DNA of 64,000 nt from an uncultured virus (IMG/VR IMGVR_UViG_3300043423_000026) (IMGVR_UViG_3300043423_000026); one strand, 5' to 3'. Counted from the first letter of the stretch, positions 2,899-25,801 are shown. Notes: generated by a model from the letters alone, not told the origin. Translations and numbers: made by a program.

Positions 2899-3039
2899 AT
2901 GCCAACAAAAAGATATGAAATTTATATTAAAGGAATACTATCCTTTGTAAAGTTTAATCGACAAGAGTTTGAAAGAGTTTGTTCAGATATGAATAAGCTA
3001 AATGTAAAATATACAACTGAAATTATTGATTTAATTTAA
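2899..3039 (+). CDS. Hypothetical 46-aa protein (not in ORF track)
   Basis: MPTKRYEIYIKG...TTEIIDLI*, downstream of motif copy 4. Confidence 0.5.
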   Translation: MPTKRYEIYIKGILSFVKFNRQEFERVCSDMNKLNVKYTTEIIDLI

Positions 3040-3052
3040 AAACAAATAAAAT

Positions 3053-3244
3053 ATGAAAAGTAAAACTAAAACAGATATATGTAACAAATTTTGTAAAGGT
3101 TGTGAAGAATATACAGATAAGTTAGATAATTGGGGTACAGATGGTATTGATTTATGTGAGGAATGCAATGAAAATTATGAAAATACAACAGGTTATTGCT
3201 CTATACAATGTTCTTTAGGATGGGGATGCGATGGTAGTTGTTAG
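3053..3244 (+). CDS. Small Cys-rich (putative Zn-binding) protein
   Basis: CxxC pairs and C-terminal CSIQC...CDGSC. Confidence 0.55.
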   Translation: MKSKTKTDICNKFCKGCEEYTDKLDNWGTDGIDLCEECNENYENTTGYCSIQCSLGWGCDGSC

Positions 3245-3278
3245 TATTATAATTAAAAACTTTAAAAACAAATAAGAT

Positions 3279-3482
3279 ATGAAACAATGCGAATGTTGTA
3301 AAAGAGAAAAAGAGTTAAGATTTGGATTTTGTTTTGATTGTGCAGATGCAGAATCAATTATAGAAGAAGGGGTTGATATGTATGATAAAGAAATTCCTAA
3401 ACAAGAAGGAATGAGTACGTCAATGAGTAAACTTCAACACATACTTAAATTATATGGTTTAATACAATTTAAAAACAAATAA
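3279..3482 (+). CDS. Small Zn-finger-like protein
   Basis: CECC...FCFDC; ends FKNK, overlapping the AAAAACAAATAAGAT junction motif. Confidence 0.55.
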   Translation: MKQCECCKREKELRFGFCFDCADAESIIEEGVDMYDKEIPKQEGMSTSMSKLQHILKLYGLIQFKNK

Positions 3483-3483
3483 G

Positions 3484-3678
3484 ATGAAACAAACAGCAGT
3501 AGAATGGTTATCAAAAGAGTTATTAAGAGAGCATCCTATACAAACAAATCACGATGTTATAAAACAAGCCAAAGAAATAGAAAAGCAACAGATTATTGAT
3601 GCTTATCAAGAAGCTATAACAAATGGTTTTTATGATGAAGATGCGGAACAATACTATAACGAAAAATTTAATAAATAA
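3484..3678 (+). CDS. MKQTAVEWL-type small phage protein
   Basis: MKQTAVEWL...QQIIDAY...AEQYYNEKF; tightly packed + strand cassette. Confidence 0.65.
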   Translation: MKQTAVEWLSKELLREHPIQTNHDVIKQAKEIEKQQIIDAYQEAITNGFYDEDAEQYYNEKFNK

Positions 3679-3679
3679 G

Positions 3680-3976
3680 ATGGAAAATACAATGAACCAG
3701 ACAGTAGGAGAACAATTTTTAGAATGGTATAATAGCTATGTAAAAGAACACGGATGCTCACCAAGTGACTTTGATGTTAATTTTTTCTGGACACATAATT
3801 TTCTCGAAAAAGAAAAGGAACAACAAGATATTTTTGCTATTGGTTTTGCAGAATTTTCAATAAATTATAACTATCATCCAACGCACAAAGTTTGGATTAG
3901 ATATGATAAAATGGCAAATGAAAAATTTTCTACAAAAGAACTATTAGAAATCTATAAAAAAGAAAAAGGATTATGA
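3680..3976 (+). CDS. Small phage protein ending KKEKGL (start trimmed to 3680)
   Basis: FAIGFAEF...LEIYKKEKGL; paralogous to 11763-11972. Confidence 0.6.
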   Translation: MENTMNQTVGEQFLEWYNSYVKEHGCSPSDFDVNFFWTHNFLEKEKEQQDIFAIGFAEFSINYNYHPTHKVWIRYDKMANEKFSTKELLEIYKKEKGL

Positions 3977-4206
3977 CGCCAAAAGAAAAAGCAAAAGAGT
4001 TAATTGATAAATATATAATTTTGGATATTAATCAATTTGAACATTGTTGGGTTTGCGTAAATGGGGCTAAAAATTGTGTATTAATATTAGTTGATGAAAT
4101 ATTAAATGCAATAAGCGAAATGTTTGAAACCTACGAAGAAAGAAAATATTGGGAAGAAGTTAAACAAGAAGTAAATTTATTTAAAACAGAAGATTATGAA
4201 ATATAG
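3973..4206 (+). CDS. MTPKEKA-family small protein
   Basis: MTPKEKAKEL...C.LI.VDEI...YW.EVKQE; paralogues at 12714 and 13144. Confidence 0.7.
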   Translation: MTPKEKAKELIDKYIILDINQFEHCWVCVNGAKNCVLILVDEILNAISEMFETYEERKYWEEVKQEVNLFKTEDYEI

Positions 4207-4471
4207 AATAGTTATAAAAACAGAAGCAAGCGGTAAAAAAAAGAAGGAAACACTTGAAGAATCTGCTGAATATTACGCACACAATTATTTTGAAATGCAC
4301 GATACAAATAATTACAAAGCATTAAAGCAAGGATTTGAAGCAGGTGCTAAATGGCAACAAGAACAAGACAAGAATAAGTATAGTGAGGAAGATATGAAAG
4401 AAATGTATTCGTACGGATATAATAATTTTTTACCATTAGAAGAAGCGTTTAAACAACTTAAAAACAAATAA
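4196..4471 (+). CDS. Small phage protein (ETLEE..GAKWQQEQ type)
   Basis: Overlapping ORF in the cassette array; ends LKNK at the junction motif. Confidence 0.6.
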   Translation: MKYRIVIKTEASGKKKKETLEESAEYYAHNYFEMHDTNNYKALKQGFEAGAKWQQEQDKNKYSEEDMKEMYSYGYNNFLPLEEAFKQLKNK

Positions 4472-4474
4472 GAT

Positions 4475-4738
4475 ATGAAAAAATTACTATTATCTACATT
4501 GGCCATCTTTATGGTGTCTTGTAGTCAGGATGATACATCCAACACGCCTACTGCTGATTGCAATTGCGATAGAGTTGTGCAAGTAAATACTTTTGGGGTT
4601 ATAGGTACGGTTGAGAGTCCAGGTATGCACTATTTCTCAACATACACAACCATCAATGATTGTACACAAATACAGAGAGAGAAAACATTCAATACAACCA
4701 ACCAATCATTGAGCCCTCAGTTAGGTCAATGCCGTTAA
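4475..4738 (+). CDS. Lipoprotein, possibly surface-exported
   Basis: Signal peptide MKKLLLSTLAIFMVS-C followed by SQDD; four further Cys. Confidence 0.7.
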   Translation: MKKLLLSTLAIFMVSCSQDDTSNTPTADCNCDRVVQVNTFGVIGTVESPGMHYFSTYTTINDCTQIQREKTFNTTNQSLSPQLGQCR

Positions 4739-7196: not shown

Positions 7197-7945
7197 TGGC
7201 AGAGGTCAATTTACAAGTAGTACTTGAGTTATTGAAAGATGACAGAGAGTATTACGGAGGTATTGGTAAAAATTACCTATCCAATTCAGATATTGGAACC
7301 TTATTAAACAACCCTAAATTTTTTGGAAAGCCAAGAGAGGACAATAAAGCATTTATGGATGGTAGATACTTCCATCAGTTGATACTTGAGCCTGAGAAAG
7401 CAAAGGACTTATTGTATGTTGATGCGAGTACACGTACTACAAAAGTATACAAGGACTTCTGTGAAGAGCACAACGTTCCGTTCTGTATGCTTGAGAAGGA
7501 GAAAAAAGACATTGAGTCTTTAGTATCTATTATCAACAAAAACATTGTATTCTTTGAGGAGTTGTATAAAAAAGGTAACCAATATGAGATACCGGCCATA
7601 GCAGAGATTCAAGGTATGATGTGGAAAGGAAAGGCTGATATTGTTACGGATGAAATGATTATAGACCTGAAGACCACATCTGATATTGATAAGTTCAAAT
7701 GGAATGCTAAGAAGTATAACTATGACTCTCAGTGTTACATTTATCAAATGTTATTTGGAAAACCTTTGGTGTTCTATACCATTGATAAAACATCAGGTAT
7801 ACTTGGTATATTCAGACCCACTGAAGCTTTTGTTAAATCGGGAGAAGAGAAAGTAGGTAGAGCTATTGAGGTGTATAACAAATACTTTGGTTCCAATCCA
7901 TCAGATGATATTGAGAACTATTACATAGACGAATTTCTATACTAA
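7196..7945 (+). CDS. RecE/DUF3799-like PD-(D/E)XK exonuclease
   Basis: LSNSDI...GRYFHQLILEP...KGKADIV...IIDLKTT...YNYDSQCYIY; adjacent to the annealase. Confidence 0.8.
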   Translation: MAEVNLQVVLELLKDDREYYGGIGKNYLSNSDIGTLLNNPKFFGKPREDNKAFMDGRYFHQLILEPEKAKDLLYVDASTRTTKVYKDFCEEHNVPFCMLEKEKKDIESLVSIINKNIVFFEELYKKGNQYEIPAIAEIQGMMWKGKADIVTDEMIIDLKTTSDIDKFKWNAKKYNYDSQCYIYQMLFGKPLVFYTIDKTSGILGIFRPTEAFVKSGEEKVGRAIEVYNKYFGSNPSDDIENYYIDEFLY

Positions 7946-7951
7946 AAAAGT

Positions 7952-8122
7952 ATGAAAAGTAAAGTATATGCCTATACAAAAAATGCTTCTGTAGCAAATA
8001 TAGGAGAAGAGTTTGATGATATAGAGAGAACTAAGAATGGTACATTATTTTATCTTAAAAGAAACTTAGTATTATACCTACCTAACGATATAATATTTTA
8101 TATTAAATATAAAGAGTTATGA
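7952..8122 (+). CDS. Hypothetical 56-aa protein (not in ORF track)
   Basis: MKSKVYAYTKN...YIKYKEL*. Confidence 0.4.
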   Translation: MKSKVYAYTKNASVANIGEEFDDIERTKNGTLFYLKRNLVLYLPNDIIFYIKYKEL

Positions 8123-8630
8123 CGGTTCGATTCCGCTCGTTGATTGAGGTTACGGTAAGCAGGCGACAAGGTTCGATTCCTTGCAATTAGTTGGTACTGC
8201 GGACAATCTGACAGCTTGGAAAGACAGCAAAGGTTAAACATTGAATACCTTTGTAAATACCTAATTAGGCGACTGAAGTTGCCTTCTAATAGGTGGGTAA
8301 GTTTTACATAAAGATACTATCAGTAATGGTAGATGTGTAGTCTCCTTGAGAAAGAGATGAGTGATGGTTCGGTAATGTGCAAGTCCCTACACAAATGAGT
8401 TCTCAGCAAGTAGTTAATGAAGAGTCCGACTGACTGATAATGGCTCATTTAGAAATAGATGGTAAGTGGTTTGAATCCACAATTTAACTACGTGACCCTA
8501 CTCTTATAGGCCTAATGCAGCCCGAAATGCAAGATAATAAGAAAGAGGGTGCTAAACAGTATGACCTTAAATAAACATTCAATTGTTTATTTAACAGTTA
8601 TAATAATCAGCTTCTGTAAAAAGTAGATTA
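8121..8630 (+). ncRNA. Large structured non-coding RNA, possibly GOLLD-like
   Basis: No long ORF; three T-loop hairpins, three GNRA-capped hairpins with G-U pairs, and long-range helices (8334-40/8387-93, 8410-17/8484-91). Confidence 0.65.
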
Positions 8631-8633
8631 AAT

Positions 8634-8760
8634 AGTCAGGTGGCGGAAGGCTCGGGATGTCTCGGGCGTGGTAACGCACATATAACGAGAGTTCTCGAGG
8701 CTCGACCATAAACAGAGTTATATGGTGGTATAAATACAGGTTCGAATCCTGTCCTGACTA
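8634..8760 (+). ncRNA. tRNA-like element with expanded D-loop and anticodon domain (no assignable anticodon)
   Basis: Acceptor AGTCAGG/CCTGACT-A; T-arm ACAGG-TTCGAAT-CCTGT; D-stem GCG/CGC with TGGTA; 127 nt long. Confidence 0.7.
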
Positions 8761-8836
8761 CAACACCAACTACGAACCTAGCCTTAGAGGTGAGGGTTGG
8801 TTCAAATAGACTAAGGCAAACTTAAAATTATTTACA

Positions 8837-9157
8837 ATGTCACAAGAACAAGAAAAAATTTTTGCAGATGGATTTATCTTCAAAAGAAACGAGAAAGCAC
8901 CTGAATTTGTAATCGGAAGATTATCAATGAAAGTTGATGAAGCGATTGCTTTTATCAAACAACACGACAAAAATGGTTGGGTTAACCTTGGGGTTAAACA
9001 AGCAAGAAGTGGAAACTTCTATGTGGAGTTAGATACGTTTGAAGCAAAGAATGATAGTGCGGTAGACAAGTACGAAGCAAAATCACCCAAGCCAAACACA
9101 CCAGCGCAACAAGTTCTAAGTGAGCAAGAGCCTGACGATTTGGATTTGCCCTTCTAA
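8837..9157 (+). CDS. Single-stranded DNA-binding protein-like
   Basis: Short beta-rich domain, Pro-rich linker, acidic tip DDLDLPF; between the recombination and primase genes. Confidence 0.65.
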   Translation: MSQEQEKIFADGFIFKRNEKAPEFVIGRLSMKVDEAIAFIKQHDKNGWVNLGVKQARSGNFYVELDTFEAKNDSAVDKYEAKSPKPNTPAQQVLSEQEPDDLDLPF

Positions 9158-9165
9158 AAATGAAT

Positions 9166-9191
9166 AGGGGAATTTAGGTTCCCCTTTTTTT
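9166..9191 (+). terminator. Intrinsic terminator
   Basis: AGGGGAA-TTTAGG-TTCCCCT followed by T6. Confidence 0.8.
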
Positions 9192-24100: not shown

Positions 24101-25801
24101 AGTAACGGCTAGTTTTTCATTCTCTGAAATATTATCAAACTCAGGGTTACTCTCCATTTCTTTAGATAAACCGTCAGATATTTGAGCATACATTTGAGCT
24201 GTTCTTTGAGCCCAACCTGCCGGACCTGAACCTCCAATCATTGCTGGCAATGATTTAGAAACTCCTAAGATAGCTCCTCCCCAAAAATCTTTTTCTTTTA
24301 AGCTAGCCCATTGTTTTGTAGTTTGAGTATCTCCAAACACATCTCTATTTGCTACTCTAATAATTGGAATTGTTTCTTTTTTAATGCTTTTCTTAACATA
24401 GTCATCAATCTCATCTTCTACATAATCTTTATTTGTTTCTGTAAGTGATTTTTTCCAATCATCATAACTTTGACCTTCTGAAGGACCTTTTATGTTTAAT
24501 TTTTTAGAGATAACTAAAGCCTGTTTATTTAATTCATCTACACTTAGCATTTTTTCATTAGGACGAACTTCTGCTAAAAAATCAATAGTTAAATCAGAAG
24601 ACCCTGCATTAATAGCATCTGAACCTTCAAGTATTGCATTCCAAATACCTCCTCCCCAACTACCTTGCTTTGCTTTCGTTATAGAATATTTAGCAACAGC
24701 AGTGTCTAATTTTTTACCTTTTTGTTTTATCTTATCTTCTTCTTGAAGAATTGATTTCATTTCAGAATCAAGAGCTATTTTTTTATTGTCTAATTCTTTT
24801 ACTTTATTTATAAATTCCTGAGTATTTCTTAAATTATCAGGAGTATTACTTAAATTTGCGTATTGTTTTTCAAGTTCTGATTTTTTTGCTAAAAATTGTT
24901 TTTGCTTAGCATTTAAGCTTGTGGCTTCATTAGCAATAACTTTTACATAATCATCTACCTGTGCTTCTGAATTAAACTTTCTATCTTGCTCTTTCATAGT
25001 TTTTTCAAGAACAAAAAGCCCCTTAGCAGGAGTATTATCTTTTATGAATTTTTTTAATTCTTCAGCTTGCTTTGTAGATTTGCTATCTAATAAATTATCT
25101 AAAGATACTTCTTTAGATTTTCCATTAGGAGCTTTTACAGTCATATAATCTCCAAGAGCTCCTGTAGTCTCAAATTTAAAGCCTAAGTCCCCAAATTGAT
25201 ATTTCATCTCTTCTACAACATTATCTTCTGTGTTATTCATCAAATTAGTATTGATGGAAGATAATCTCTCGTTTAGATATTTATTATCTGCTACATTTGG
25301 TTTTATATTTAATTGTTTATCAAATATATCTCCATATTTTTTCTTTTCAGCTGTAGTCTCTTGATTTCTCTTATCTAATTCTTGAACTACTTTATTAGCT
25401 TTTGAAGCTTTTTCAGGATTGAATATAGGTTTCCCTGACATATCTGTAGGTACAGATTGCCTTTTAGCCATAGCTTTCTCAAGACCATTTTGGTCAAGAG
25501 TAAGCATAACATTTTGTGGATTAGTAGATTTTGGCGATACCGATGAACCAGGTTCCGAAGACAAGTCCAAAGCGAATTTTTTTTTTTGAGCAGGAGCAGC
25601 TTCAGGCTTAGCTTCACCTTTACCAACTAGACTAGAGAATGAATTAATGTCTTTTTTGTATCCCTTAGCCTTTACATAAGAATACATATCATTCATTACT
25701 TCAGAATCATTATGTAAAAGTTTTATAAATTCTTCTCTATTTTTTTGATAGCCTTTTGATTTCGCTCTTGAATATAAATCGTTGATTACTTCTTCATCCA
25801 T
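18113..25801 (-). CDS. Giant internal virion / DNA ejection protein (2562 aa)
   Basis: Helical low-complexity protein at the end of the late operon; Gly/Ala-rich membrane-like segment; C-terminal MPFSSF motif; position typical of podovirus ejection proteins. Confidence 0.6.
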   Translation of the reverse strand: MDEEVINDLYSRAKSKGYQKNREEFIKLLHNDSEVMNDMYSYVKAKGYKKDINSFSSLVGKGEAKPEAAPAQKKKFALDLSSEPGSSVSPKSTNPQNVMLTLDQNGLEKAMAKRQSVPTDMSGKPIFNPEKASKANKVVQELDKRNQETTAEKKKYGDIFDKQLNIKPNVADNKYLNERLSSINTNLMNNTEDNVVEEMKYQFGDLGFKFETTGALGDYMTVKAPNGKSKEVSLDNLLDSKSTKQAEELKKFIKDNTPAKGLFVLEKTMKEQDRKFNSEAQVDDYVKVIANEATSLNAKQKQFLAKKSELEKQYANLSNTPDNLRNTQEFINKVKELDNKKIALDSEMKSILQEEDKIKQKGKKLDTAVAKYSITKAKQGSWGGGIWNAILEGSDAINAGSSDLTIDFLAEVRPNEKMLSVDELNKQALVISKKLNIKGPSEGQSYDDWKKSLTETNKDYVEDEIDDYVKKSIKKETIPIIRVANRDVFGDTQTTKQWASLKEKDFWGGAILGVSKSLPAMIGGSGPAGWAQRTAQMYAQISDGLSKEMESNPEFDNISENEKLAVTMPIGIVAATLEELGFRNLKSSQGLINRITLNVLGKTGRGVTAKTFRELVENEVDGMLAKGALTLTAAGASEFETGAAQELAETKFKDVYNLIKGKEMFKTPDSISDLVQNVVVAGAQEAVGGFVLGTPSAVSAAYSEKGFLKMDDATFETFANMANDEKMQSAYITSLKSKITNGELTVAQAKEQLNNYRNSVGLFRQLPDNLDTAQRKEAMNLLKEKKDLENYVEGKDPALVVKQKNRITEINDSLTKLSEADAIQEQSTTEIPVQSEAGISETVETGVSETKPEVITEQVTQEEVTAPQTIIEEPTAPISEALNDAAGVYVYDGKKGQLTTIGQTVVLETPTEIIDLGNVDELADSTLADFGIQKEEELDITLNEDNSVNVSGKTYLNNYSSPDAAINQDKDGNYSVTLDTEDGQKRTFRGQQADQIVYQMKLKDFEQNGTDEQIEQANELADEAIRIEEEVRQPSAEREGKTTRKAKRKQRTLKQPKEPLTKAEREALQPNVEITQEAPIEKPIKEAATVQSTLVDVKAEESAVTESPTVKYEQDIANEIYDRADNENSKLRKNIDSDSPKLEYDGDNESIKKEIERYNRLTRKIEEDGSFSNRYAYGLILKLIRRGIDTNNTRKLTNALRKADLFYGYSREMQGGNNFTTLISDSDKFIADSYYVVEDKLAATKILTKLAKELGIEVASADTEANRKVEKIKSKENNTKDLLDLDTKDKDSLNRVLEYLDRADKSLDLDPNELNDVTRVMAVATAKAIVKTLKALVNAGITLQEAINNVSNIYNIASDKIIDALDIVSKINENKSEGISEIEAPGYNELSSEIDNQIKEGNSVEDVLDYVQESDVYKNATDVQRELLVRDVRKRFGLRQKSAPSVDKLFGVIKDIKKVTMREKDLLIKQIKDKAKGARESIQVWKKQTEELTNELNKLNKEGKINSKQVGAILKRFSKVNIFSEKSVGRFTDYMVKIFNDANYKDKLSKARVTLASLKKLSKNESKNANLRAVASEFVKIDPSLVDNIDKYNEVADKLKAAVDGSKIRKADVKFAETINIEDTISYIEETIEEQESVIKEEKLKELQDLFGVDASEFSAEEIEALLESDKDLSKDDEKIVRATIKKAFDIYSTVINDMLNTGIDPFTEEEVTFTEQEKDIIKRFMEIDPSKLEDTKEALRTVDSLINFIQNKSTAGMLKPIADFEGIIGGKKAESEGLKAVRLRKYWSANLGLALGKSVTSLPVLFEKMFKGVNRALRVEELTGLSDLINNSSKAESESNNIVKKYVSQFYKTKANGESFNSAYNDVERGVFAHVLRNVIGSESRMKKVFDKRKQEVLGAIELLSKNGNDSEIETAKILQKVYDKILDGSENVNDVRAKTDINNTKAVDYWVKEWSNKYESLSNLALNFYNKVLGRDLNFTPDRIRKLQNKMGDVNLEDIDSQFFANTDDVLYDKKSGSLIDKQENRSIPKDMYVDFSFDKKNANAMNDALTDLYTAFDIRKVGSFLKSESFRKIFPSAKDANLIDKRIKKFVRLTRKKTPFSNEEISDFLRKADKLAKFGVTASLASPSQPFKQTIPVMFSTAMNAGSVGLGASINRNFNNWLNDLGYAISNRGVESQAEIDSLNKLIDKAADMPLDKALKFLEKTNDKALKVLLVNFDVWIARASFKAYYEQYLKKQGLYETSETVQTDSGERTVTKKGIDYSKHKVNKEAANYAQRMVDRQQNISNHSLAGDFFTSEEKSQKAFVKMLMPFSSFRMNQSSRLGSDLSTLEYWNTSTKEDKIIALRSISGYVLEAAAYRALQIGFSLLMYSAAKSIMGDDDEEDDKKFVNNLLKGSAQTFMSDTFSPIPLADPFLQDAMSYSVEEIESLRDIPEEEKTKLFGSQEKSALSAFGTYGIPLEKAKDLYLLGRLAYTNKYTDSYGNKKEISQNKADKLKLLIAPLFVSSVIGVGSPDMTSIVKKSIKMSKNEDGMDMEESKKTDPEMYKMIKQLQEEIKKDK

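What the first reader, a model, noticed from the sequence alone, without database searches (positions are those of the whole stretch)
8121..8630. ~500-nt ornate structured RNA inside the recombination/replication operon
Seen: an ORF-free block in an otherwise gene-dense arm. T-loop hairpins: CGG-TTCGATT-CCG (8123-35), CAAGG-TTCGATT-CCTTG (8167-83), GTGG-TTTGAAT-CCAC (8466-80). GNRA-capped stems: CTATCA-GTAA-TGGTAG (8317-32), CTT-GAGA-AAG (8345-54), CATTTA-GAAA-TAGATG (8446-61). Also AGGCGAC-TGAA-GTTGCCT (8267-84), multibranch closers TGTGTAG/CTACACA and GTAGTTAA/TTAACTAC, and an 11-bp hairpin (8567-94). The G-U pairs and GNRA loops work only on the + strand, so selection appears to act on RNA. 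Known: GOLLD and ROOL are large phage-associated, tRNA-adjacent RNAs of unknown function. Inference: a GOLLD-like or new large ncRNA class.
Basis: partly seen in the sequence, partly recalled or inferred. Interest (0 to 1): 0.8.

Follow-up and report, generated by a model that had tools for sequence, protein, structure and literature searches.

The report
Uncatalogued folded RNA gene of phages
The gene-free stretch holds a roughly 327-base, intricately folded non-coding RNA gene, flanked by two tRNA-like pieces, from a widespread phage-only RNA family that no catalogue lists and whose job is still unknown.

Summary
The core is a 327-nt RNA gene on the + strand (8229-8555). It sits between a tRNA-like minihelix (8140-8190) and an expanded tRNA-Leu-like element (8634-8760).

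The RNA belongs to a family found at about 150 IMG/VR phage loci. Seven helices show strong covariation (0 of 500 shuffles reach the observed score). A loop-to-junction pseudoknot is supported by four independent compensatory variants.

Rfam 15 has no match, so it is not GOLLD, ROOL, tmRNA, RNase P or an intron. Cellular genomes essentially lack it. Among GenBank phages only Cellulophaga phage phi14:2 carries it, where it most likely is one of two abundant, unexplained "long non-coding RNAs" reported in print.

Neighbours are often tRNA or tmRNA genes, always on the same strand. No protein gene is a conserved neighbour.

My best reading is an autonomous, stable, trans-acting RNA cut out of its precursor by tRNA-processing enzymes. 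It may act on the translation machinery; that target is inferred and weak. The function is unproven.

This scan has already met the same family on other DNA (seven earlier notes).

The parts
8140..8190 (+). Upstream tRNA-like minihelix: a 7-bp acceptor-like stem plus a 5-bp T arm with loop TTCGATT, and no anticodon arm. Proposed 5' processing signal.
   Evidence: A strict acceptor+T-arm scan finds only two such modules in 13 kb of the window, and both flank the RNA. Fold (energy not special, z +0.82). Marine RNA-library contigs cover 8124-8227 with 4 and 9 mismatches.
8229..8555 (+). The family RNA gene, about 327 nt: H1-H7, a pseudoknot and a single-stranded 3' tail GCUAA.
   Evidence: Conserved blocks are shared with 112 of 116 examined loci. 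Alignment A1; covariation.
8229..8252 (+). H1: stem 8229-8234 / 8247-8252 with the near-invariant 12-nt loop UAAACAUUGAAU.
   Evidence: 6 of 6 pairs show changes on both sides; loop positions are at least 90% conserved.
8252..8308 (+). H2: stem 8253-8258 / 8302-8307, with an extra base pair 8252-8308. It encloses a variable insert that includes hairpin 8267-8284.
   Evidence: 6 of 6 pairs have double changes. The extra covarying pair is UA 56, AU 8, CG 1, GC 1.
8317..8332 (+). H3: CUAUCA-GUAA-UGGUAG, a GNRA-capped hairpin preceded by the conserved junction AUAAAGAUA.
   Evidence: Highest covariation of the alignment, e.g. CG 46 / GC 19 / UA 8 / AU 2.
8334..8393 (+). H4: long-range stem 8334-8340 / 8387-8393 closing the central domain (H5 plus a variable hairpin).
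   Evidence: 99.2% of cells paired; 7 of 7 pairs have double changes.
8341..8357 (+). H5: 5-bp stem (8341-8345 / 8353-8357, with a C-A closing pair) and heptaloop UUGAGAA.
   Evidence: 5 of 5 pairs have double changes; the closing C-A pair is conserved in 69 of 75.
8347..8405 (+). Pseudoknot: H5 loop UGAGAA (8347-8352) pairs with UUCUCA (8400-8405) in the invariant junction AAAUGAGUUCUCAGCAA.
   Evidence: Compensatory variants in L136, L142, L194 and L174; wobbles in L137, L141 and L200; mismatches in L212 and L148. All read by eye.
8410..8491 (+). H6: stem 8410-8417 / 8484-8491 enclosing a variable insert, here with GAAA hairpin 8446-8461 and T-arm-like hairpin 8466-8480.
   Evidence: 91.6% paired; 3 pairs have double changes. 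T-arm-like hairpins occur in 9 of 76 members against 0.3 expected.
8495..8550 (+). H7: outer stem 8495-8499 / 8546-8550, a conserved internal loop (AC / AAG), inner stem 8502-8507 / 8537-8542, and a variable tip.
   Evidence: Outer stem 95.7% paired; the inner stem has double changes in 5 of 6 pairs.
8567..8594 (+). AT-rich 11-bp hairpin just after the RNA. It has no U tract; its role is unknown and it is not part of the family core.
   Evidence: Fold of 8556-8633 gives z = -4.47, 0 of 200 shuffles as stable. No terminator call here.
8634..8760 (+). Downstream tRNA-Leu-like element. Acceptor, D and T arms are kept. The D loop is expanded and the anticodon region is replaced by a long non-canonical domain. 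Proposed 3' processing signal.
   Evidence: Rfam tRNA 31.8 bits, E 1.6e-4. ARAGORN finds nothing. Fold z = -3.44. 85.6% identical over 97 nt to MW202828. The same element starts within 200 nt downstream of 7 of 86 members.
9166..9185 (+). Intrinsic terminator ending the + strand unit (RNA, tRNA-like element, 106-aa ORF 8837-9157).
   Evidence: 8-bp GC-containing stem followed by TTTTTTT.

Best explanation
Window 8229-8555 (+) is a gene for a ~327-nt member of an uncatalogued, phage-restricted family of compactly folded RNAs.

Shown here: seven helices kept by compensatory change, a GNRA-capped hairpin, a loop-to-junction pseudoknot, near-invariant junction and loop nucleotides, + strand polarity, and absence from Rfam and from cellular genomes.

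Inferred:
1. It is an autonomous, trans-acting, stable RNA rather than a leader of one gene, because its flanking genes differ from phage to phage.
2. It is transcribed within a + strand operon and released by host tRNA-processing enzymes. RNase P would cut at the 5' end of the downstream tRNA-like element or tmRNA. RNase Z or trimming would act behind the upstream tRNA-like element. This would resemble the stable RNAs made from phage tRNA clusters.
3. Its invariant unpaired nucleotides form a binding surface or active site for a conserved host component. Because the family travels with tRNA, tRNA-like and tmRNA genes, I consider the translation or trans-translation machinery the most likely target (my odds about 0.3). 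RNA-only self-assembly as in ROOL/GOLLD (about 0.12) and catalysis (about 0.1) are the main alternatives.

The molecular function is not established.
For: Family:
- The 17-mer GAGTTCTCAGCAAGTAG occurs at 117 IMG/VR stretches. Of 116 examined (115 loci plus the window; L035 and L091 dropped as chance hits), 112 also carry the 3' block GGGTGCTAA and 100 the 5' loop block.
- A second, independent anchor gives 95 stretches. 38 of them lack the first 17-mer.

Structure, on 76 non-redundant members (A1; 76 of 81 representatives, see the full report):
- 89.0% of cells are paired, against 77.8% when shuffled.
- The covariation score is 0.271, against 0.095 shuffled (0 of 500 shuffles reach it) and 0.03-0.075 for slid partners.
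- 40 of 55 pairs have double changes.
- Pseudoknot compensations occur in L136, L142, L194 and L174.

Strand:
- Helices hold 144 G-U pairs against 64 A-C pairs.
- Every tRNA and tmRNA gene that ARAGORN finds in 80 loci of up to 12 kb is on the RNA's strand.

Not a known family: 0 Rfam hits over the RNA in the window and in 20 member loci.

Phage-only:
- 15 hits in 185,579 species' genomes, of which only 3 (MAG contigs L217, L223, L224) are real members.
- Only phi14:2 among 50,697 GenBank phage records carries it.

Autonomy: the first downstream ORF falls in 59 clusters over 75 loci, and the first upstream ORF in 60 clusters over 78.

Processing model:
- The only two acceptor+T-arm modules in 13 kb of the window bracket the RNA.
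- A tmRNA starts directly downstream on the same strand in 9 of 60 loci (two confirmed by Rfam).
- The same tRNA-Leu-like element abuts the 5' end in 3 of 86 members and starts within 200 nt of the 3' end in 7 of 86.

Expression:
- In phi14:2 two long intergenic regions are transcribed rightward, above most protein genes, from the earliest time point and without later decline (preprint 10.1101/2020.03.07.982082, passages read).
- Freshwater RNA-library contigs from three studies cover the family core at very high word depth: a 34-nt contig at 25,000 and a 98-nt exact contig at 498.
Against: - No experiment bears on function.
- The folding energy of the window's copy is no better than shuffles (z -0.06).
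- 46 of 80 loci have no ARAGORN tRNA or tmRNA within 6 kb, so the link to translation RNAs is partial. ARAGORN does miss the odd tRNA-like elements, though.
- Strict flanking tRNA-like modules are found in only 7 of 63 loci upstream and 4 of 63 downstream.
- I found no base complementarity to co-located tmRNAs beyond chance: longest matches are 5-8 nt in 18 distinct tmRNAs.
- The mapping of the phi14:2 homologue to the paper's "g004-g005 junction" is my inference from gene spacing. The paper's numbering table is in supplements I could not open.
- The RNA-library data are contigs. They cannot prove transcription, strand or ends, and contig breaks coincide with the limits of conservation.
- Near-identity of core blocks between unrelated phages could partly reflect recent exchange (members are visibly mosaic) rather than functional constraint alone.
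Confidence: 0.55

Rival explanations
1. It is a member of GOLLD or ROOL, one of the first reader's named options.
For: It shares their lifestyle: phage-borne, near tRNA genes, abundant, pseudoknotted, with no protein partner (ROOL/GOLLD traits from passages of 10.1101/2024.12.08.627333).
Against: No Rfam match at gathering score in the window. None at E up to 10 in 7900-8900. None in 20 other member loci. Members are 240-506 nt, against about 600 nt and over 800 nt for those families. The one cultured carrier infects a Bacteroidota host (Cellulophaga).
Confidence: 0.02
2. It is a cis-acting leader or processing platform that controls or matures the RNA or gene immediately downstream (tmRNA, tRNA or an mRNA).
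For: A tmRNA follows directly in 9 of 60 loci. tRNA-like genes abut it. In the window there is no terminator between the RNA and the next ORF.
Against: What lies downstream differs almost everywhere: 59 ORF clusters over 75 loci. 46 of 80 loci have no tRNA or tmRNA within 6 kb. In phi14:2 the region accumulates as an abundant stable RNA. Sequence invariance in junctions far exceeds what a processing spacer needs.
Confidence: 0.1
3. It self-assembles into an RNA-only multimer (a cage or scaffold) like ROOL and GOLLD. The loop-junction pairing or other invariant loops would act between molecules.
For: Same ecological niche and abundance as the cage-forming RNAs. No conserved protein neighbour. 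Several invariant loops have no intramolecular partner found.
Against: Nothing here tests oligomerisation. The RNA is half the size or less of ROOL and GOLLD. The pseudoknot is sterically plausible within one molecule.
Confidence: 0.12
4. It is a ribozyme, for example one acting on tRNA-like substrates or on itself.
For: Ribozyme-like anatomy: a GNRA tetraloop, a pseudoknot and blocks of invariant unpaired nucleotides at junctions. It is co-located with tRNA-like genes.
Against: No match to any Rfam ribozyme, intron or RNase P model. No conserved cleavage-site signature was seen.
Confidence: 0.1
5. It is an anti-defence decoy, for example a mimic of a host CRISPR repeat or of a nuclease substrate.
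For: An abundant early phage RNA. The H4-H5 region superficially recalls GUUG...CAAC-type Bacteroidota CRISPR repeats; that resemblance is recalled, not tested against real repeats.
Against: The H4-H5 pattern with up to 3 mismatches gave 37 single hits in 35 of 401 Bacteroidota-phylum genomes. That is about as many as the reversed control, and no arrays were found.
Confidence: 0.06
6. It is not an RNA gene: either a DNA-level element (origin, packaging or recombination site) or chance hairpins and decayed tRNA debris.
For: It lies between recombination and primase genes in this window. Folding energy is not special. The flanks are tRNA-like fragments.
Against: Compensatory changes keep pairing, with G-U outnumbering A-C. 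Polarity always matches that of tRNA genes. The genomic neighbourhood is not conserved. The homologous region of phi14:2 is highly transcribed.
Confidence: 0.03

Closest known systems
The abundant intergenic "long non-coding RNA" of Cellulophaga phage phi14:2 (g004-g005 junction; Drobysheva et al., preprint 10.1101/2020.03.07.982082, passages read)
   Same: phi14:2 carries a homologue: 69.9% identity over 186 nt. It has all conserved blocks and helices, at record about 2913-3361, and is row L079 of alignment A1. That stretch lies in a 685-nt gap between annotated genes on the rightward strand.
   Different: The paper reports only that two long intergenic regions are highly and persistently transcribed. 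It gives no family, structure or function. That the homologue lies in "g004-g005" is my inference: these are the only two consecutive long gaps separated by one gene once ORFs under 50 aa are ignored. The numbering table is in a supplement I could not open.
GOLLD RNA (large phage/prophage RNA; traits from passages of 10.1101/2024.12.08.627333)
   Same: Phage-encoded, often next to or linked with tRNA genes, expressed during infection, elaborately folded, function unknown.
   Different: No covariance-model match. GOLLD is over 800 nt; this family is 240-506 nt. The sequence and helix plan are unrelated, and the host range differs.
ROOL RNA (same source)
   Same: Phage and prophage RNA near tRNA islands, with multiple pseudoknots, no known protein partner and very high abundance.
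   Different: No covariance-model match. ROOL is about 600 nt and forms an octameric cage; nothing is known here about assembly. This family is essentially absent from cellular genomes and so from prophages.
Stable RNAs "species 1 and 2" of the phage T4 tRNA gene cluster (recalled from textbook knowledge; no paper read)
   Same: Small stable non-tRNA RNAs encoded among phage tRNA genes, co-transcribed with them, released by tRNA-processing enzymes, and of unknown function.
   Different: Those are much smaller (about 120-140 nt, by recall), from a Proteobacteria phage, and were not compared here by sequence.

Membership tests
Uncatalogued phage RNA family (phi14:2 lncRNA family; unnamed) | Invariant junction AAAUGAGUUCUCAGCAAGUAG between H4 and H6 | tested here: met
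   Exact 17-mer at 8397-8413, single copy in the window. Invariant in 76 of 76 aligned members, though by ascertainment.
Uncatalogued phage RNA family (phi14:2 lncRNA family; unnamed) | H1 with loop UAAACAUUGAAU, GNRA-capped H3, long-range H4, and H5 with heptaloop UUGAGAA | tested here: met
   All are present at 8229-8393 and match the consensus. The helices covary across the family.
Uncatalogued phage RNA family (phi14:2 lncRNA family; unnamed) | Pseudoknot between the H5 loop and the H4/H6 junction | tested here: met
   UGAGAA at 8347-8352 is complementary to UUCUCA at 8400-8405. Four compensatory variants occur elsewhere.
Uncatalogued phage RNA family (phi14:2 lncRNA family; unnamed) | 3' domain: H6 (GUAGUUA/UAACUAC), GUG, H7 (ACCCU..AGGGU with AC/AAG internal loop), tail GCUAA | tested here: met
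   Present at 8410-8555 and identical to the consensus blocks.
GOLLD (Rfam family; accession not checked) | Match to the Rfam covariance model | tested here: not met
   No hit at gathering score or at E up to 10 over 7900-8900.
ROOL (Rfam family; accession not checked) | Match to the Rfam covariance model | tested here: not met
   No hit, and none in 20 other member loci.
tmRNA | tRNA-like domain plus a tag reading frame, detected by ARAGORN or RF00023 | tested here: not met
   ARAGORN finds 0 genes in the window and Rfam gives no hit. tmRNAs are neighbours of other members, not homologues.
RNase P RNA and group I / group II introns | Match to any of the Rfam models | tested here: not met
   No hit at E up to 10.
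tRNA (for the flanking element 8634-8760 only) | Cloverleaf with a 7-nt anticodon loop | tested here: inconclusive
   RF00005 scores 31.8 bits (cut-off 29), but with inserts of 24 and 51 nt. It is missed at default filters and by ARAGORN. No canonical anticodon loop is seen.

The most novel reading that the evidence does not exclude
The family is a new class of large functional RNA: a ribozyme, or an RNA that binds the ribosome or the trans-translation machinery. Bacteroidota phages would deliver it together with tRNA-like and tmRNA genes as an RNA-only host-takeover module.
Probability: 0.15. Interest if true: 0.9.

Novelty: new variant of a known kind. Interest (0 to 1): 0.6.

Why it matters
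Large, highly conserved structured RNAs without a known function are rare, and past examples turned out to be ribozymes, riboswitches or RNA cages. This family is widespread: about 150 phage loci from water, sediment, soil and wastewater samples. It is conserved to the nucleotide in its junctions, probably very highly expressed, and missing from Rfam.

One carrier, Cellulophaga phage phi14:2, is cultured and already has RNA-seq data. The function can therefore be tested directly by deletion, pull-down and structure work. Its repeated pairing with phage tmRNA genes and with non-decoding tRNA-like elements hints that some phages carry a whole set of translation-related RNAs whose purpose is unexplored.

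Tried and rejected
- Rfam at gathering score on the whole window, at E up to 10 on 7900-8900 and on 20 member loci: nothing covers the RNA.
- ARAGORN on the window: 0 genes.
- Folding energy against shuffles: no signal.
- Second copy in the window: none. Second copy within 12 kb at 80 loci: 0 of 80.
- Conserved protein neighbour: none. The two largest ORF clusters (25 and 22 of 81 loci) are multi-copy small phage proteins at varying positions.
- CRISPR-repeat mimicry by H4-H5: hits no more frequent than the reversed control and no arrays in 401 genomes.
- Pairing of invariant loops with co-located tmRNAs: only 5-8-nt matches.
- Further tertiary pairs by mutual information: only one extra base pair at the foot of H2.
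- Homology of the 106-aa ORFs after the RNA in the window and in phi14:2: none.
- Pfam and PHROGs give nothing for ORFs 7952-8122 and 8837-9157.
- Fremin et al. 2023 (PMC10690425): passages read, and six contig numbers searched in the supplements with no occurrence. Files 1, 2 and 4 could not be searched, so the family may be among their 10,006 candidates.
- Literature searches for a named family found none beyond the phi14:2 remark.
- RNA-library contigs: ends at 8231 and 8226/8227 coincide with the limits of conservation and have loose ends, so they say nothing about RNA termini. Parts without cover are not evidence.
- Own-genome search was not possible because the assembly is not held. There are no earlier notes on this genome.

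Full report
**Observation.** The stretch has no + strand ORF longer than 31 aa. ARAGORN finds no tRNA or tmRNA anywhere in the window, and Rfam 15 gives no match at gathering score. A permissive Rfam scan of 7900-8900 (E up to 10) returns only a tRNA-like match at 8634-8760 (31.8 bits, with inserts of 24 and 51 nt) and chance-level noise. Nothing matches GOLLD, ROOL, tmRNA, RNase P or introns.

**Boundaries and family.** A blastn search of GenBank phages hit Cellulophaga phage phi14:2, a crAss-like phage, at 69.9% identity over 186 nt. The hit lies in a 685-nt stretch annotated only with three tiny opposite-strand ORFs.

Comparing the two sequences exposed blocks of 20-27 identical bases. One of them, GAGTTCTCAGCAAGTAG, occurs at 117 stretches of IMG/VR viral contigs.
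- Two of these (L035, L091) are chance hits.
- Of the remaining 115 loci plus the window, 112 of 116 carry the 3' block GGGTGCTAA (at most 1 mismatch) and 100 of 116 carry the 5' loop block AAACATTGA.
- Conservation starts at window 8229-8231 and ends at 8555.
- Members range from about 240 to 506 nt. The differences lie in four variable inserts.

The window therefore holds a 327-nt member, not a ~500-nt RNA. A second, independent anchor (TAACTAYRYGACCCTACTC) found 95 stretches, 38 of them without the first 17-mer. The family thus has about 150 loci in this collection.

**Structure.** I aligned 76 non-redundant members. These were 76 of 81 k-mer representatives. I left out L005, L027, L033, L076 and L096, whose 5' anchor was mislocated or which belong to a subfamily with a different 5' half.

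I scored a structure read off the window's copy. The results were:

| Measure | Observed | Shuffled | Slid partners |
|---|---|---|---|
| Cells paired | 89.0% | 77.8% | 37-46% |
| Covariation score | 0.271 | 0.095 (0 of 500 reach it) | 0.03-0.075 |

- 40 of 55 pairs show changes on both sides.
- H4 (8334-8340 with 8387-8393) is 99.2% paired, with double changes in 7 of 7 pairs.
- H3, the GUAA-capped hairpin at 8317-8332, has the strongest covariation of all.

The structure was derived from one of the aligned sequences, which favours it against the slid controls. The number of double changes does not suffer from that bias.

**Pseudoknot.** The loop of H5 (UGAGAA, 8347-8352) is complementary to UUCUCA (8400-8405) in the invariant junction. 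In the first set both sides are invariant by ascertainment. The second-anchor set shows compensations, read by eye:
- L136: UCGAGA with UCUCGG.
- L142: UGAAAA with UUUUCA.
- L194: UGAGCA with UGCUCA.
- L174: GGCA with UGCC.
- L137, L141 and L200 show wobbles.
- L212 and L148 show single mismatches.

**Other structural tests.** A mutual-information scan found only one further pair, 8252-8308 at the foot of H2. Single-sequence folding energy gives no support: z = -0.06 on the + strand and -0.60 on the - strand.

**Strand.** Helices hold 144 G-U against 64 A-C cells, leaving aside the conserved C-A pair of H5. The GUAA loop is conserved. In 80 loci with up to 6 kb on each side, every tRNA and tmRNA gene that ARAGORN calls is on the strand of the RNA.

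**Distribution.**
- Among 50,697 GenBank phage records only phi14:2 carries the core.
- In one genome for each of 185,579 prokaryote species the 17-mer occurs 15 times. That is fewer than my own rough expectation for random sequence.
- Only three of these hits (L217 and L223 on one 100-kb MAG contig, and L224) have the family's other blocks.
- The family is therefore essentially confined to phages, and it is not a cellular RNA that phages copy.

**Context.**
- Of 60 first-set loci with 700 nt on each side, 9 have a tmRNA gene directly downstream in the same orientation and 4 more have a tRNA on the same strand. Rfam confirms the tmRNA in the two such loci I rescanned.
- Of 80 second-set loci, 27 have tRNAs and 9 have tmRNAs within 6 kb. 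46 have neither.
- No protein gene is a conserved neighbour. The first ORF downstream falls in 59 clusters over 75 loci, and the first upstream in 60 over 78. The largest clusters are multi-copy small phage proteins at varying positions.

**The window's own arrangement.** The RNA lies between a Sak-type annealing protein and a PD-(D/E)XK exonuclease upstream and a primase downstream. It is followed by a tRNA-like element, a 106-aa ORF of unknown family, and a terminator at 9166-9185.

A strict scan for acceptor-plus-T-arm modules finds exactly two in 13 kb of the window, at 8140-8190 and 8634-8759, bracketing the RNA. Across the family such modules end within 60 nt upstream in 7 of 63 loci (about 0.9 expected from their density) and start within 150 nt downstream in 4 of 63 (about 2.2 expected).

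The downstream element has the acceptor stem, D arm and T arm of a tRNA-Leu-like gene, but its anticodon region is replaced. The same element, with a middle part of very different length (74-127 nt overall), starts within 200 nt after 7 of 86 distinct members and abuts the 5' end of 3 of 86. ARAGORN misses these, so the link to tRNA-like genes is under-counted.

**Expression.** I read passages of the Drobysheva et al. preprint. It states that two long intergenic regions of phi14:2, the g004-g005 and g005-g006 junctions, are transcribed rightward at higher levels than most protein genes. [quoted passage not shown]

If ORFs under 50 aa are ignored, the only two consecutive long gaps separated by one gene are record 2905-3589 and record 3911-4601. 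The first holds the homologue. The second holds an ARAGORN-predicted tmRNA. This mapping is my inference; the numbering table is in supplements I could not see.

For the window itself, two freshwater DNA runs hold it and may be its source. Contigs of three freshwater RNA libraries from three studies cover the conserved 5' half at very high word depth. In X19 one 34-nt contig has depth 25,000, and a 98-nt contig identical to 8231-8327 has depth 498. The 3' half has depth 4 or less in that run, which fits mosaic relatives rather than this exact phage. Contigs cannot show transcription, strand or ends.

**Mechanism.** The following is shown: a compact, pseudoknotted, GNRA-containing fold with invariant unpaired nucleotides; + strand polarity; a phage-only distribution; and independence from any protein neighbour.

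The following is inferred:
- It is a stable trans-acting RNA.
- It is released from a longer transcript by RNase P at the 5' end of the following tRNA-like element or tmRNA, and by 3' processing behind the preceding one.
- It acts through its invariant junctions on a conserved host component.

I consider the translation or trans-translation machinery the most likely target, at about 0.3. The reasons are the company the RNA keeps and the chance odds: a single-copy tmRNA gene would by chance lie within 700 nt downstream on the same strand in well under 1% of 100-kb genomes. Self-assembly as in ROOL and GOLLD, catalysis, a cis leader role and an anti-defence decoy remain open.

Two specific ideas failed. 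A CRISPR-repeat mimic was not supported, and neither was base pairing with the neighbouring tmRNA.

**Comparison and novelty.** The closest thing in print is the unexplained phi14:2 transcript. By way of life the closest known kinds are GOLLD and ROOL (traits from passages read) and, by recall, the stable RNAs of the T4 tRNA cluster. Membership in GOLLD, ROOL, tmRNA, RNase P and the intron families was tested and not met.

Literature searches found no named family. The 10,006 candidates of Fremin et al. (PMC10690425) could not be fully checked.

Earlier agents of this scan met the same family on other genomes and reached the same identification. Their notes led me to the phi14:2 paper. I rechecked the family, the covariation, the pseudoknot, the Rfam absence and the tmRNA adjacency myself.

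Noticed in passing
window 8634-8760; also L003, L018, L024, L052, L070, L090, L113 and L002 527-630: A family of tRNA-Leu-like elements shares the acceptor stem (AGUCAGG/CCUGACU, discriminator A), D arm and T arm. The anticodon region is hypervariable and often non-canonical, and overall length runs from 74 to 127 nt. ARAGORN misses them. They may be non-decoding tRNA mimics serving as processing signals, or possibly still chargeable, since by recall LeuRS ignores the anticodon.
   Followed up: partly
window 8140-8190: A 51-nt minihelix with only an acceptor-like stem and a canonical T arm. Stretch 8124-8227 recurs with 4-9 mismatches in contigs of a marine RNA library (X23), where another tRNA 3' end precedes it.
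   Followed up: partly
window 8567-8594: An AT-rich 11-bp hairpin directly after the RNA (fold z -4.47), with no U tract. A similar sequence follows the RNA in L101.
   Followed up: no
window 8246-8253: TACCTTTG, in the conserved H1/H2 boundary, fits the Bacteroidota -7 promoter motif TAnnTTTG (motif recalled). Members with a different H1 lose it, so it is probably a coincidence.
   Followed up: no
L001 3913-4382 (phi14:2 record about 4031-4500): ARAGORN calls a 470-nt tmRNA (tag GSSVQKLAMVA) in the second long intergenic region of phi14:2, but Rfam's tmRNA model does not reach its gathering score there.
   Followed up: partly
window 8258-8302, 8358-8386, 8418-8483 compared with L047, L031/L034/L059/L078 and L078: The variable inserts are mosaic. 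The window shares its H2 insert with L047, its central hairpin with L031, L034, L059 and L078, and its H6 insert with L078, while other parts differ. This suggests frequent recombination between family members of different phages.
   Followed up: no
A1 rows window, L003, L012, L046, L059, L066, L078, L081, L087: T-arm-like hairpins (4-bp stem, loop TTYRANN) are optional modules in the variable inserts of 9 of 76 members (0.3 expected in shuffles). They sit at three different insertion sites.
   Followed up: partly
L005, L040, L096, L123, L124, L154, L175, L187, L190, L217: A subfamily keeps H3-H7 and the UGAGA loop but has a different 5' part (no H1/H2 motif) and ...ATTGG(G/A)AGTTCTCAGC in the junction.
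   Followed up: no
L217 and L223 (one 100-kb MAG contig labelled Clostridium sp.): Two family copies, one of each subfamily, lie 8 kb apart on a contig of crAss-like genome size binned into a Clostridium MAG. This is probably a mis-binned phage genome.
   Followed up: no
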